Shown here piece by piece: positions 2,444-63,822 of a stretch of DNA of 64,000 nt. The first letter of the stretch is position 1; the number at the start of each line of letters is the position of its first letter. The stretch comes from a virus: the IMG/VR virus record IMGVR_UViG_3300034374_009254, positions 37,259-101,258 of that record, one strand, 5' to 3'. The position numbers and the translations under genes are program-made. The notes below the pieces were generated by a model. It did no database searches. It was not told where the DNA came from and saw nothing but the letters and a program-made list of their open reading frames with translations.

Positions 2444-3658
2444 TTAAGGTAGATCAGCTCCATAATACTGAATACTATCTTTGGTGCCATCTTGTGCTGT
2501 AATAAAATACATTCCTGAAAATGTATCTAAATTATAAGTTCCTGCTGAAACATCTTTTCGATATACATTTACCGCACCTTGTCCAGGTATAGCATCAGAA
2601 GAAAGAGTTGCATGGGAAGTATATGTATTTATATCAGATACTGCATTCCAAGAAGAATCGTTTCTTAATAGCCAAATTCTAACCGGGCCATCAAAAGTTA
2701 TAGATCCTGCATCCGCTTGGCCACTATTTACATCTGTAGTACCCCAAGCCCCTTCTAAATATGGAGCAAGCGTAGATAAATTACTTGCATAAGCGACCCA
2801 GTTACCTCCATTTGCAGTTAGTGTTAAGCCGTCTGTTATTTTTGCCATCGGAGCTAGAGAATGATGTTGCCAATTAGTAATATCTGCAACAATAAAGCTC
2901 AAACTGAAGTCTACAAAACGAGTTGTAATTCTTGCTCCATCCGACGCACTTAAACGTGCTCGAAAAGTTCCTGCATTTGCTTTTGTAGTAGTTGGCGTAA
3001 AAGTATATACACCGGTACTTTGATTTATAGTTGTATCTGCACTAAGCTGGGAAGGTCTTGCATTATTCGCAGTTTTATAAGCAATTCCATAAGTAATATC
3101 AAAACCTTCGGGGTCTTGTGCCACCATTGTAACTGTACTTGTAGTTCCATCACTATTTAATTCTTGTGTAGTAGGCGGCTCTGTAGTAATTACAGGACTT
3201 TCATCATTTCCTGCAGCTATTCGATCCCACTCTGTACCATCCCATACATAAAGTGTTTTTGTATCAGAAGTAAAAGCAAAATCTCCTACAGTATTTCCGC
3301 TAGTAGGAACTGCTGCAAAATTTGCATAAGCAGTTACAGAAGAACCATCAGCACCATCAGCACCATCAGCACCATTGGCTCCTGCGGGTCCTGCAGGTCC
3401 TGCGGGTCCAGATACACCTACCCATTGACTTGAAGATCCGTCACTATAGTAAACATAAAGACTACTAACATCTGTACGATACCACAAGTCTCCCGCTTTT
3501 GGATTTAAAGGAGCAGTATCAGAAGAAGTAACTGTCGCGGGCAAAACTCCTACAGCAGTATCCTTCCATACTCCTTTTGTCGAGTTATAGGCATACGTTA
3601 CACCATTTAGTGTAAATGTATCTCCGTTACTCGGACTATCTGGAAAATTATATGCCAT
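2444..3658 (-). CDS. Modular tail fibre/adaptor protein with short collagen segment and Ig/cadherin-like domain
   Basis: NFPDSPSNGD module, APxxPxxGDLW...QWV module, GPA/GAD triplets, DPEGFDITY domain shared with the next two genes. Confidence 0.75.
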   Translation of the reverse strand: MAYNFPDSPSNGDTFTLNGVTYAYNSTKGVWKDTAVGVLPATVTSSDTAPLNPKAGDLWYRTDVSSLYVYYSDGSSSQWVGVSGPAGPAGPAGANGADGADGADGSSVTAYANFAAVPTSGNTVGDFAFTSDTKTLYVWDGTEWDRIAAGNDESPVITTEPPTTQELNSDGTTSTVTMVAQDPEGFDITYGIAYKTANNARPSQLSADTTINQSTGVYTFTPTTTKANAGTFRARLSASDGARITTRFVDFSLSFIVADITNWQHHSLAPMAKITDGLTLTANGGNWVAYASNLSTLAPYLEGAWGTTDVNSGQADAGSITFDGPVRIWLLRNDSSWNAVSDINTYTSHATLSSDAIPGQGAVNVYRKDVSAGTYNLDTFSGMYFITAQDGTKDSIQYYGADLP

Positions 3659-61830: not shown

Positions 61831-61854
61831 AAAGGGGCATTGCGCCCCTTTTTT
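61831..61854. terminator. Bidirectional terminator
   Basis: AAAGGGGC-ATTGC-GCCCCTTTT between convergent genes. Confidence 0.85.
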
Positions 61855-62233
61855 AATAGAGTATCTTTTTTAGATCTGGAGCAAAGAAATTTGGTCCTTT
61901 TACAACTTTACCATCAAAGCGTTTGATAGGCTTACCATCTTCTCCTAGCTTGCTCATATTGCTTTCGTGTACTTCTACGAAGCAAGCATCAAGATCAATG
62001 CCAAAAGCATGACCGGCTCCGTAAACCACGTAGAGCAAATCTGTAAGAGCATCAGCAATTTCAATAATGTCTTTCGCACCCATAGCTTCATGTAGCTCCT
62101 CCAATTCTTCTCTGATAAGTTCGTGCCGGAGCGCTCTTGTTTCCGGGTCACGAAGAGTGGGGTTACTGTGTACATCTTGTTCAAACGCGTGCATGAACTC
62201 GGCGACGAGTTCGAAGTTTGTTTTGTTCTGCAA
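61853..62233 (-). CDS. MazG-like / PRA-PH family NTP pyrophosphohydrolase
   Basis: LIREELEEL, EIADALTDLLYVVYG, EVHESNMSK, DGKVVKGPNF; start probably TTG at 62233. Confidence 0.88.
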   Translation of the reverse strand: MQNKTNFELVAEFMHAFEQDVHSNPTLRDPETRALRHELIREELEELHEAMGAKDIIEIADALTDLLYVVYGAGHAFGIDLDACFVEVHESNMSKLGEDGKPIKRFDGKVVKGPNFFAPDLKKILY

Positions 62234-62399
62234 TTCTTCTTTTCTCCCTTGCTTTAGCTGATAATTTTGCCTTCGATCTTGCAATGGAAGGCTTTTCAAA
62301 ATACTGTTTTTCTTTGTAGTCAAAAAGTTTGTCTGCGTATTTACGTTTAAAAACTTTTAAAGCTGCATTCACATTGTTGTTCCTTACTTTTACGGACAT
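62181..62399 (-). CDS. rpsU: Ribosomal protein bS21
   Basis: VKVRNNNVNAALKVFKRK...YFEKPS...K..AK.R. Confidence 0.88.
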   Translation of the reverse strand: MSVKVRNNNVNAALKVFKRKYADKLFDYKEKQYFEKPSIARSKAKLSAKAREKRRIAEQNKLRTRRRVHARV

Positions 62400-62552
62400 A
62401 AGTTAAGTTTATAGACTACAAAGAGCCTCTTTTTATGAAAAGATCGTATTTCATCTCTAAAAAATCACCAAAATCAGTGGTGATATAGTGAGTTGAAGTA
62501 CGCCACATTTCCTCTAGCTCAACTAGAAAAAACTCTAAAAACTGATCGAAAT

Positions 62553-62735
62553 TCATGCCTCTAGCCTCTTAAAGTACCAACCTCGTTTTTGTAGGTAATG
62601 AGCTTGCGAAGCTATCGCAGTCAGAGTTCGAGATGGCAACAATTCCTGTAGTTTTTCTTTATCTACAGTATAATAATTTTGACGAAGTAATTCTCGTTCT
62701 CGAATACTCCAGGGTTTTCTTTCATATTTTTTCAT
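62553..62735 (-). CDS. Small HTH/Myb-like DNA-binding protein
   Basis: WS..E.ELL...Y....L..LLP.RT..AI...A..L; near-leaderless after promoter 62742-62770. Confidence 0.65.
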   Translation of the reverse strand: MKKYERKPWSIRERELLRQNYYTVDKEKLQELLPSRTLTAIASQAHYLQKRGWYFKRLEA

Positions 62736-62741
62736 CCTAGT

Positions 62742-62830
62742 ATTATAGTGGAAAACTGTAAAAAAGTCAAGTACTTTTTTTGACCACCCCTAAAATACTT
62801 CTTGACTTTAACTCCTTTCTCTGGTATAAT
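62742..62830. promoter_or_regulatory. Divergent sigma70 promoter pair
   Basis: Minus strand TTGACT-17-TATAAT (62742-62770); plus strand TTGACT-17-TATAAT with TG extension (62802-62830). Confidence 0.85.
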
Positions 62831-62886: not shown

Positions 62887-63033
62887 TTGATAACTACTAC
62901 TGAATTTGCAATTTTTATTTTTTGCCTTCTTGGGTGTGGAATACACTCTTGGAAGTTAGGAAAATCACAAGGAGTAGAGGCTACCGTCCAGTACATGATT
63001 GATACGGGAGTACTCGAAGTAGAAGATGAATAA
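62887..63033 (+). CDS. 48-aa single-TM protein (not in ORF track)
   Basis: AAGGAG RBS, TTG start, MITTTEFAIFIFCLLGCGIHSWKLGKSQGVEATV... Confidence 0.65.
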   Translation: MITTTEFAIFIFCLLGCGIHSWKLGKSQGVEATVQYMIDTGVLEVEDE

Positions 63034-63091
63034 TTCGTTGAAGTAATAAACTAACGGTTGGACTCGGGTGCAATTCCCGACAGCTCCACCA
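63032..63091 (+). ncRNA. ssrA: tmRNA acceptor piece (permuted gene, 3' half first)
   Basis: GAC + T-arm TCGGG-TGCAATT-CCCGA + CAGCTCC-A-CCA. Confidence 0.9.
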
Positions 63092-63105
63092 TAAGGAGTT
63101 TTATA

Positions 63106-63276
63106 ATGCGTATACCAATGAAAGGTGGTGATGAGTTTGATGGACTGTCTCGACGTTCTAAAAGATTTTTTCTTTGGAGAGCCGGAGAAAGAAAGAGCCT
63201 CAAGAGAAAGTACAATAAACGACGCAGAAAGACTTTTTATGATGGGGCTGATACAGACTCGACAGGCGTACAGTAG
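63106..63276 (+). CDS. 56-aa basic protein encoded in the tmRNA intervening segment
   Basis: AAGGAG at 63093-98, ATG at 63106, MRIPMKGGDEFDGLSRRSKRFFLWRAGERKSLKRKYNKRRRKTFYDGADTDSTGVQ. Confidence 0.75.
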   Translation: MRIPMKGGDEFDGLSRRSKRFFLWRAGERKSLKRKYNKRRRKTFYDGADTDSTGVQ

Positions 63277-63410
63277 ACTTATGGAGAATTCGTGCGGAAG
63301 CTACGTTAACGCAACAAACTTAATAAATGCCAACGACGACATTTATGCACTTGCTGCCTAATTAAAGGTAAGCGGGGTGGGAGGAGCCTGGCAACAGAAA
63401 TCCTCAAGCT
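63244..63410 (+). ncRNA. ssrA: tmRNA coding piece; tag ANDDIYALAA
   Basis: GGGGCTGATACAGACTCGAC 5' end, pk1-like element, ATAAAT-GCC resume context, tag 63329-63361. Confidence 0.92.
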
Positions 63411-63429: not shown

Positions 63430-63822
63430 ATGAAGAAACTTTTAGCGGGGTTTGCACTTCTCGGCCTTTCAGCCGGAATCGGTGCAGAAACTGTAATTAA
63501 CTATGATGATGGCTCTACCTACACTTTGGAAGAGAATCAAGAAATTTATATCAGTACGCCGAACAGTGCTTTATTTAAGCGGCAGCTCATGAAAAATAAG
63601 GACACTTTTTTTCGTGTTCAAGAGCCTTGGACAAAGCGTGACTATGTGCCTGATCCAGACGGAACTGATACTATGGTCGTAGGCTCACACGAATGGTGTA
63701 AAGCATACAAGCCTTGGCACGAAGGTCTTACGTTTAACATGATTTCATGGCAACGTGCTTGTGATACCAACAACGATGGTGTGTATGATGAGGACGACGA
63801 CAGATGGCCTGACGAAGGCTAA
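63430..63822 (+). CDS. Secreted/periplasmic protein with C-terminal EF-hand-like loop
   Basis: Signal peptide; DTNNDGVYDEDD. Confidence 0.75.
   Translation: MKKLLAGFALLGLSAGIGAETVINYDDGSTYTLEENQEIYISTPNSALFKRQLMKNKDTFFRVQEPWTKRDYVPDPDGTDTMVVGSHEWCKAYKPWHEGLTFNMISWQRACDTNNDGVYDEDDDRWPDEG

What the first reader, a model, noticed from the sequence alone, without database searches (positions are those of the whole stretch)
63092..63276. Protein gene inside the tmRNA intervening segment that tmRNA maturation would turn into a non-stop mRNA
Seen: the 152-nt spacer starts with AAGGAG almost immediately after the CCA, then ATG at 63106. The ORF encodes a very basic 56-aa protein whose stop lies 33 nt inside the coding piece. 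The expected RNase P cut before G63244 falls exactly after codon 46 and removes the stop. Established: arfA and brfA are expressed from non-stop mRNAs, so their small basic ribosome-rescue products accumulate only when trans-translation is saturated. Inference: a self-referential circuit in which tmRNA processing creates its own substrate. The peptide would be tagged and destroyed when rescue works and persist when it fails, and ribosomes reading into GGGGCUG would compete with tmRNA folding. The peptide lacks the ArfA KGKGS motif, so it could be a new ribosome-binding or rescue factor. Best candidate for an undescribed system in this window.
Basis: partly seen in the sequence, partly recalled or inferred. 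Interest (0 to 1): 0.9.

Follow-up and report, generated by a model that had tools for sequence, protein, structure and literature searches.

The report
Stop-less protein gene inside phage tmRNA spacer
The spacer that is cut out when this marine phage's two-piece ribosome-rescue RNA (tmRNA) matures carries a real, selected gene for a small basic phage protein whose stop codon lies inside the mature tmRNA; this layout proves common among small genes lodged in such spacers, so a self-sensing switch is possible but not shown.

Summary
A permuted alpha-type tmRNA lies at 63032-63408. CCA ends at 63091, AAGGAG is at 63093-98 and ATG at 63106. The tmRNA 5' end G63244 follows codon 46, and the stop TAG is at 63274-76.

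The ORF is a real gene. dN/dS is 0.05-0.23. It belongs to a large, phage-only family of ~50-aa basic proteins (phrog_16066; 767 clusters). Most members are free-standing, have their own stop and have no tmRNA nearby.

All copies found embedded in a tmRNA spacer fall in one clade. None has a stop before G1. The conserved protein core ends four codons before the cut.

The last four codons form the 3' arm of a conserved stem that closes the spacer, and the Shine-Dalgarno forms its 5' arm. In a sample of 105 other phage tmRNA spacers I found about 40 unrelated small ORF clusters. Among the 15 multi-member clusters with ORFs of 33 aa or more, 6 end at a built-in UGA one nt before G1, 4 stop earlier and 5 read into the tmRNA.

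So the spacer is a general cargo slot, and reading into the tmRNA is an ordinary frame outcome there. The processed message is inevitably non-stop. An ArfA-like circuit remains possible (~0.2). A rescue-factor role has no support. Other notes of this scan report the same phenomenon on other genomes.

The parts
62802..62830 (+). Sigma-70-like promoter (TTGACT-17-TATAAT with TG) that probably drives ORF48, the tmRNA precursor and downstream genes
   Evidence: 11 of 12 consensus match with an extended -10. Function is inferred only.
62887..63033 (+). Upstream 48-aa ORF whose stop TAA (63031-63033) overlaps the first modelled helix of the acceptor piece
   Evidence: Listed. Conserved at 36-72% identity directly upstream of the tmRNA in L002-L005 (in L006 it lies about 490 nt further upstream). 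RF04321 starts at 63032.
63032..63091 (+). tmRNA acceptor piece: 5' helices, T arm, acceptor 3' strand CAGCUCC and the encoded CCA
   Evidence: Rfam alignment and ARAGORN.
63092..63243 (+). 152-nt intervening segment (IVS), removed on maturation; it folds as a stem-closed rod
   Evidence: MFE -42.1 kcal/mol, z -4.97, 0 of 200 shuffles as stable. Embedded IVSs have mean z about -2.8, against -0.2 for free-standing homologues.
63092..63102 (+). 5' arm of the IVS-closing stem; contains the Shine-Dalgarno AAGGAG (63093-63098)
   Evidence: Paired in the MFE and centroid structures. The stem is conserved with compensatory changes across lineages.
63106..63276 (+). 56-aa ORF (P0001), a member of the KGGDE(Y/F)D...KRxYNKRxRK phage protein family. 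Codons 1-46 lie in the IVS and codons 47-56 plus the stop lie in the mature tmRNA.
63229..63239 (+). 3' arm of the IVS-closing stem; it supplies most of the ORF's last four codons before the cut (ACU UUU UAU GAU, 63232-63243; the final nt are the leader before G1)
   Evidence: An ORF-less IVS (L015) has the same type of arms and the same leader UAUGAU|GGGG.
63244..63408 (+). tmRNA coding piece. G63244 is the expected RNase P 5' end. The tag reading frame is 63329-63361 (ANDDIYALAA, stop TAA).
   Evidence: The 3' limit is approximate (end of the RF01849 match).
63430..63822 (+). Downstream 130-aa ORF with a signal-peptide-like N terminus, directly after the tmRNA
   Evidence: Listed. Conserved at 68-84% identity in L002-L006. 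No family match.

Best explanation
This is a cargo gene in the spacer slot of a phage two-piece tmRNA gene. The phage is about 101 kb and distantly T5-like. It transcribes ORF48, the tmRNA acceptor piece, the 56-codon gene, the tmRNA coding piece and ORF130 as one RNA.

The spacer between CCA and G1 is closed by a conserved stem that extends the acceptor stem. A member of a widespread ~50-aa basic phage protein family sits in the loop of that stem. Its own variable tail and stop have been replaced by the stem's 3' arm and the leader UAUGAU. These are read in a frame that skips the slot's built-in UGA, so translation ends at the first in-frame stop inside the tmRNA.

The protein is most likely made from the nascent or unprocessed precursor. 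At that stage the Shine-Dalgarno is still free and the stop codon is still attached. Once ribosomes clear, the stem and the tRNA-like domain fold, RNase P cuts before G63244, and the same molecule becomes tmRNA. Any message left after the cut has no stop, and its product would be tagged.

Shown here: the gene is real and under selection, the layout, the stem, and the general slot. Inferred: the processing sites, the timing of translation, and the fate of the non-stop product. The protein's own function is unknown. It is probably a small nucleic-acid-binding helix protein of phage early or replication modules.
For: - tmRNA and exact geometry.
- Purifying selection on the embedded ORF: dN/dS 0.05-0.23 while synonymous sites are near saturation.
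- Family: more than 213 viral and more than 366 metagenome loci and 767 clusters at 50% identity. The core ends at K42 and the tails are variable.
- Free-standing copies lie between thyX and primase/helicase or DNA polymerase genes. A 97%-complete 53.8-kb record has the gene but no tmRNA.
- All 20 distinct embedded core sequences used in the tree (26 distinct spacer DNA sequences) lie in one well-supported clade of 30.
- Tails after G1 differ in sequence and length, with stops 12-107 nt inside the tmRNA. They simply translate the tmRNA 5' consensus.
- The IVS-closing stem covaries: AAGGAGU/ACUUUUU, AAGGAGU/ACUUCUU, AAGCACA/UGUGCUU, AAACACACGG/CCGUGUGCUU. It is also present in an ORF-less IVS.
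- The IVS is unusually structured.
- 105 other phage tmRNA IVSs hold about 40 unrelated ORF clusters. Of the 15 multi-member clusters with ORFs of 33 aa or more, 6 stop at the built-in UGA, 4 stop earlier and 5 read into the tmRNA.
- ORF48, an unrelated gene, also overlaps the tmRNA with its stop codon.
Against:
- Persistence of the stop-less state through deep divergence and in two different frames could also reflect selection for it.
- In the L020 lineage the same family sits upstream of the acceptor piece, again with its stop inside a modelled tmRNA helix. That is a second link between this family and tmRNA.
- If the 7-12 bp closing stem is weak in vivo, the processed spacer could be translated efficiently.
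Confidence: 0.72

Rival explanations
1. ArfA/BrfA-like sensor. The gene is kept stop-less on purpose. RNase P cleavage makes a non-stop message, so the 46-aa active protein is tagged and destroyed while trans-translation works and accumulates when it is saturated or blocked.
For: - ArfA and BrfA are regulated in exactly this way, through truncated mRNAs (PMC8012679; PMC3989581).
- The full conserved core lies upstream of the cut.
- No embedded copy in six or more sublineages and two frames has a stop before G1.
- The family recurs in, directly before (L020) or 2.5 kb from (L015) phage tmRNA genes.
- Some family representatives have tails that look like translated tRNA or tmRNA 5' ends (P0020, P0038, P0046).
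Against: - About a third of unrelated multi-member cargo families in the same slot also read into the tmRNA, roughly as random frames would give.
- The nucleotides where a stop could arise are base-paired in a conserved stem and occur unchanged in an ORF-less spacer.
- All embedded copies may descend from one insertion.
- Most family members have normal stops and no tmRNA nearby.
- The Shine-Dalgarno is sequestered in the folded spacer.
Confidence: 0.18
2. The peptide is a new ribosome-rescue or ribosome-binding factor that works like ArfA, BrfA or ArfT.
For: It is small and very basic, with a C-terminal helix rich in K and R (model). It lies in a region with phage bS21 and tmRNA. It is physically linked to tmRNA in one clade.
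Against: - No match to ArfA or any Pfam, NCBIfam or PDB family or fold.
- The motifs shared by known factors are absent from the alignment: KGKGS of ArfA and the KH motif of ArfA and BrfA (PMC8012679).
- Free-standing copies sit in DNA replication and nucleotide modules of podovirus-like contigs that have no tmRNA.
- The family is practically absent from 185,579 cellular genomes: 6 loci, all on MAG contigs.
Confidence: 0.06
3. Translation of the spacer acts mainly in cis, as a timer or chaperone of tmRNA folding. Ribosomes reading through the 3' arm and G1-G7 would delay formation of the acceptor stem, and the protein product would be secondary.
For: The ORF runs through both the closing stem and the acceptor 5' strand. 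Many unrelated ORFs occupy the same slot, which suggests that the act of translation or the slot itself matters more than one product.
Against: There is strong purifying selection on the amino-acid sequence, which is shared with hundreds of free-standing homologues. Many phage tmRNAs have short ORF-less spacers (L015, L020).
Confidence: 0.04

Closest known systems
Circularly permuted (two-piece) tmRNA genes of Alphaproteobacteria and of marine and aquatic phages (Rfam RF01849, RF04321; Caulobacter, Keiler et al. 2000; phage Melnitz, PMC9004378)
   Same: Gene order is acceptor piece, CCA, intervening segment, then coding piece. The G3:U acceptor stem, the tag ending in LAA and scores well above gathering are all present.
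   Different: Here the intervening segment is a 152-nt protein-coding, stem-closed insert. The 2025 tmRNA database paper mentions only a tRNA-Ala gene and a repetitive element in such segments (PMC11915505). No paper combining 'permuted tmRNA', 'intervening' and 'open reading frame' was found.
arfA (RNase III-truncated mRNA) and brfA (terminator before the stop): small rescue factors expressed from non-stop mRNAs
   Same: A small basic protein whose message loses its stop codon through RNA processing, so its product should be a trans-translation substrate. The active core is upstream of the truncation point.
   Different: The truncating event would be RNase P maturation of the tmRNA itself. 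There is no sequence similarity and no KGKGS or KH motif. No rescue activity is shown. Most homologues have normal stops.
Group I introns with homing-endonuclease genes in the T-loop of tmRNA genes (PMC11915505)
   Same: A protein ORF carried in a part of the tmRNA gene that is absent from the mature RNA.
   Different: Those are self-splicing selfish introns at a different site, and their ORFs are self-contained. Here the host is the permutation spacer, removal is by tRNA-processing enzymes, and the ORF ends in the mature RNA.
Small ORFs interspersed with tRNA genes in polycistronic transcripts of T4- and T5-like phages (from general knowledge)
   Same: Stable RNAs and mRNAs are cut from one transcript. 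Packing is tight in a phage whose capsid protein is distantly T5-like.
   Different: Those ORFs are not nested inside one RNA gene, and their stop codons are not part of the mature RNA.

Membership tests
Permuted two-piece tmRNA (RF04321 / RF01849) | Covariance-model score above the gathering threshold over the full model | tested here: met
   RF04321 117.3 bits (threshold 47), model positions 1-213. RF01849 92.7 bits (threshold 50).
Permuted two-piece tmRNA (RF04321 / RF01849) | Permuted order with encoded CCA, a 7-bp acceptor stem with G3:U, and a tag reading frame ending in LAA | tested here: met
   CAGCUCC-ACCA at 63081-63091 pairs with GGGGCUG at 63244-63250. Tag ANDDIYALAA.
Permuted two-piece tmRNA (RF04321 / RF01849) | Precursor cut by RNase P at G1 and trimmed to CCA, giving two RNAs | not testable with these tools
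   Inferred from PMC3985003. No RNA data could be obtained.
KGGDE(Y/F)D...KRxYNKRxRK small phage protein family (phrog_16066) | Significant profile or sequence match over the ~42-residue core with the invariant residues | tested here: met
   phrog_16066 E 1.7e-4. tblastn relatives at 53-100% identity. Invariant residues G8 D9 E10 D12 L14 W24 K30 K33 Y36 N37 K38 R39 R41 K42.
KGGDE(Y/F)D...KRxYNKRxRK small phage protein family (phrog_16066) | Free-standing ~50-aa gene with its own stop | tested here: not met
   The window copy and its clade end inside the tmRNA. This is a layout variant, not a doubt about homology.
ArfA | Sequence family membership (Pfam ArfA; KGKGS and KH motifs) | tested here: not met
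   No Pfam hit at E up to 1. No PDB sequence hit to ArfA. The motifs are absent from alignment A3.
ArfA | Expressed from a processed non-stop mRNA and controlled by tmRNA tagging | not testable with these tools
   The geometry allows it. No expression data.
ArfA | Recruits RF2 to non-stop ribosomes | not testable with these tools
   A biochemical assay is needed.
BrfA | Sequence family membership (Bacillus-restricted factor with a KH motif) | tested here: not met
   No PDB sequence hit to BrfA chains. The family is phage-only.
Cargo genes in the phage tmRNA spacer slot (known only from this scan) | ORF starting within about 60 nt after CCA, inside a stem-closed spacer that ends with the leader ...UGAU before G1 | tested here: met
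   The window has ATG 14 nt after CCA, a closing stem and the leader UAUGAU. 105 other spacers with about 40 ORF clusters share the leader.

The most novel reading that the evidence does not exclude
Phage tmRNA maturation is used as a built-in switch. RNase P cleavage of the precursor converts the mRNA of this conserved basic protein, and perhaps of other stop-less spacer cargos, into a non-stop message. The 46-aa protein would then persist only when trans-translation in the infected cell is saturated or disabled. This would be an ArfA-like feedback wired into the tmRNA gene itself.
Probability: 0.2. Interest if true: 0.85.

Novelty: new variant of a known kind. Interest (0 to 1): 0.62.

Why it matters
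Spacers of permuted tmRNA genes are treated as disposable. Here one is a protein-coding message under selection, and a whole class of phage tmRNA genes uses this spacer as a slot for small genes.

One transcript must choose between being a messenger and being a stable-RNA precursor. After processing, the leftover message is a natural substrate of the very RNA it came from.

This gives a simple, testable system for three questions: how translation, RNA folding and RNase P processing compete; what phage tmRNAs are for; and whether non-stop regulation of the ArfA kind has arisen a further time.

It also matters for annotation, because gene callers mask or mis-extend ORFs that overlap RNA genes.

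Tried and rejected
I therefore could not read the contexts of database proteins, including P0020, P0038 and P0046, whose tails look like translated tRNA or tmRNA. Searches of viral contigs with P0038 and P0020 found only other family members. The tRNA-like tail of P0020 was confirmed only indirectly, by its match to a tRNA-Gly in L305.
- GenBank phages: no DNA match and no meaningful protein match.
- Pfam, NCBIfam, PDB sequence search, Foldseek PDB search and the ESM Atlas gave no named relative. Cluster look-up gave no names.
- A 78-codon frame from 63125 that runs in the tag frame to the tag stop is not conserved in relatives and was rejected as chance.
- The family tree has too few columns (43) to say whether embedding arose once or several times. 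One origin is not excluded.
- The internal hairpins of the spacer are not conserved as a consensus. Only the closing stem and the acceptor stem are.
- The idea that the stop-less state is special to this family was weakened by the slot survey.

Full report
**1. Observation**

The window is the last 64 kb of a 101,258-bp IMG/VR virus record. Its capsid/protease fusion is about 32% identical to those of T5-like phages.

ARAGORN finds a permuted tmRNA with tag ANDDIYALAA. Rfam gives RF04321 117.3 bits and RF01849 92.7 bits.

In the sequence the acceptor 3' strand CAGCUCC-ACCA ends at 63091. AAGGAG is at 63093-98 and ATG at 63106. GGGGCUG starts at 63244 and pairs with CAGCUCC through a G3:U pair. 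The ORF stops at TAG 63274-76.

**2. The ORF is a real gene of a large phage family**

- P0001 has close relatives at 67-94% identity.
- It has more than 213 relatives in viral contigs and more than 366 in metagenome contigs.
- It matches phrog_16066, function unknown, at E 1.7e-4.
- A profile search finds 767 clusters at 50% identity.
- The consensus is M(T)KRIPMKGGDEYDGLTKARKFYLWKAGQLKKIKRAYNKRFRK followed by a variable tail of 6-25 aa. The conserved core ends at K42.
- Between diverged embedded copies dN/dS is 0.05-0.23 while synonymous sites approach saturation.
- The protein (85-94% identical among L002-L006) is better conserved than its neighbours: bS21 47-77%, MazG 60-81%, ORF130 68-84%.
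- AlphaFold2 gives two helices, 8-14 and 28-44, with mean pLDDT 74.
- No Pfam, NCBIfam, PDB sequence or PDB fold relative was found.
- Only six loci, all on MAG contigs, occur in 185,579 cellular genomes. The family is a phage family.

**3. Most members have nothing to do with tmRNA**

Of the first 80 viral loci, only the close relatives of the window plus L020/L021 and L015 have a tmRNA within 3 kb. A 97%-complete 53.8-kb record has the gene and no tmRNA. Two large records have a tmRNA 40 kb away from the gene. Free-standing copies have their own stops and lie between thyX and primase/helicase or DNA polymerase genes of podovirus-like contigs.

**4. The embedded clade**

Scripts over 321 loci found 26 distinct embedded spacer sequences in at least six sublineages: the window group, L007, L008/L009, L242-L257, and L258/L263.

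In every one the ORF starts 12-26 nt after CCA, has no stop before G1, and ends 12-107 nt inside the tmRNA. The residues after the cut (GADTDSTGVQ, GAVSESTNG, GGVLDSTGN, GAEIGSTCILVYKT and others) differ in length and simply translate the tmRNA 5' consensus. L258/L263 use a different frame (..LMM|GLN*).

On a tree of 134 core sequences, all embedded copies lie in one supported clade of 30. That clade also holds ten free copies, including L020. A single origin is not excluded.

In L020 the gene lies directly upstream of the acceptor piece, the spacer is only 8 nt, and the gene's stop UGA sits inside a modelled helix of the acceptor piece.

**5. Why there is no stop**

The spacer ends are a conserved stem that extends the acceptor stem: C75-G(-3), A76-U(-4), then 8-10 further pairs. 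The arms covary between lineages:

- AAGGAGU/ACUUUUU (window)
- AAGGAGU/ACUUCUU (L007)
- AAGCACA/UGUGCUU (L009 group)
- AAACACACGG/CCGUGUGCUU (L258)

The ORF-less 52-nt spacer of L015 has AAGCACAU/AUGUGCUU and the same leader UAUGAU|GGGG.

So the gene sits in the loop of a pre-existing spacer hairpin. Its last four codons (TFYD, TSFV, CAYD) are the 3' arm plus leader. In the window lineage the Shine-Dalgarno is the 5' arm. Any point mutation that creates an in-frame stop there would break pairs of this stem.

The whole spacer is strongly folded: -42.1 kcal/mol, z -4.97. Fifteen embedded spacers average z about -2.8. Equal-length stretches of 25 free-standing homologues average -0.2 +/- 0.9. 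The coding sequence therefore also serves to bring CCA and G1 together.

**6. The spacer is a general cargo slot**

Notes from other windows of this scan suggested that phage tmRNA spacers are exchangeable gene slots. I tested this.

Two pattern scans of IMG/VR, filtered for full acceptor-stem pairing and a T-arm stem, gave 105 distinct spacers of 135-195 nt. Their ORFs fall in about 42 clusters. Nearly all share a leader ending UGAU before G1.

Among the 15 clusters with at least two members and ORFs of 33 aa or more:

- 6 end at that built-in UGA, so the stop ends 1 nt before G1
- 4 have an earlier stop of their own
- 5, including this family, read 12-78 nt into the tmRNA

This is close to what random frames would give. 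Reading into the tmRNA is thus an ordinary outcome in this slot, not a mark of this protein. The unrelated upstream ORF48, conserved in relatives, also overlaps the acceptor piece with its stop.

**7. Mechanism**

Shown: a single promoter-like site precedes ORF48, the acceptor piece, the cargo gene, the coding piece and ORF130 without terminators.

Inferred from established tmRNA biology (PMC3985003): RNase P cuts before G63244, and the 3' trailer is removed back to CCA.

Hence a molecule can give the 56-aa protein only before processing. Afterwards the message has no stop, and its product would receive the tag, as for ArfA and BrfA (PMC8012679).

I consider translation on the nascent precursor the main source of protein, for three reasons:

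- The Shine-Dalgarno is free only until the 3' arm is made.
- The folded spacer sequesters the Shine-Dalgarno.
- Stop placement in the slot looks unselected.

A selected ArfA-like sensor remains possible (about 0.2). In its favour are the persistence of the stop-less state over deep divergence and in two frames, the L020 layout, and the family's repeated linkage to tmRNA. A rescue-factor function has no positive evidence.

**8. Novelty**

Two-piece tmRNAs in marine phages are known (PMC9004378). The 2025 tmRNA database paper lists a tRNA gene and a repeat element in intervening sequences but no protein gene (PMC11915505). No paper combining these terms was found.

Other notes of this scan report the same phenomenon in other genomes. 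Two of them describe a stop-less small basic protein that is probably this family. I treated them as leads only.

**9. Limits**

There are no RNA or protein data. Tools for contig look-up and sequencing runs were unavailable. The slot survey is a capped sample filtered by simple rules, and singleton ORFs in it may be spurious. The number of independent insertions of this family is unresolved.

Noticed in passing
window 62887-63033 (+): A conserved 48-aa ORF with a hydrophobic N terminus and a TTG start lies directly upstream of the tmRNA. Its stop TAA overlaps the first helix of the acceptor piece. The 5' side of the tmRNA therefore also abuts a gene, in the position held by the basic-protein family in L020.
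   Followed up: partly
window 61853-62735 (-): A divergent leftward unit encodes a 60-aa HTH-like protein, a 46-aa ORF, a phage bS21 homologue (62181-62399; Pfam S21 E 1e-5, below the gathering score; phrog_21469) and a MazG/PRA-PH pyrophosphohydrolase (61853-62323). The bS21 3' end overlaps the MazG start.
   Followed up: partly
L322-L530 (viral contigs): Phage permuted tmRNA spacers of 135-195 nt carry about 40 unrelated small ORF clusters. These include membrane-helix proteins ending ...GKISF or ...YLIFF, a CxxC basic protein (MAKYR...) and a KYEDLCK-ending family. Nearly all spacers end with UGAU before G1, which serves as a built-in stop in one frame.
   Followed up: partly
L020:2986-3328 (also L021, L113): The same protein family lies directly upstream of a permuted tmRNA that has only an 8-nt spacer. 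The gene's stop UGA (3147-3149) lies in a helix (UUGA/UCAA) between the acceptor and coding pieces.
   Followed up: partly
proteins P0020, P0046, P0038: Family representatives from other assemblies have C-terminal tails that look like translated tRNA (AGVAQLEERNLAKVKVESSSLFTRS; ARVAQW) or a translated tmRNA 5' end after a 12-aa tail (H|GVETGSTDG). This suggests further cases of reading into RNase P substrates. Their DNA could not be fetched.
   Followed up: partly
window 63125-63361 (+): A 78-codon frame runs from inside the spacer, in the tag reading frame, to the tag stop (...NLINANDDIYALAA). It is not conserved in relatives and is judged to be chance.
   Followed up: yes
window 63430-63822 (+): A 130-aa protein with a signal-peptide-like N terminus and an acidic C terminus follows the tmRNA. 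It is conserved in relatives at 68-84% identity and has no family match.
   Followed up: no
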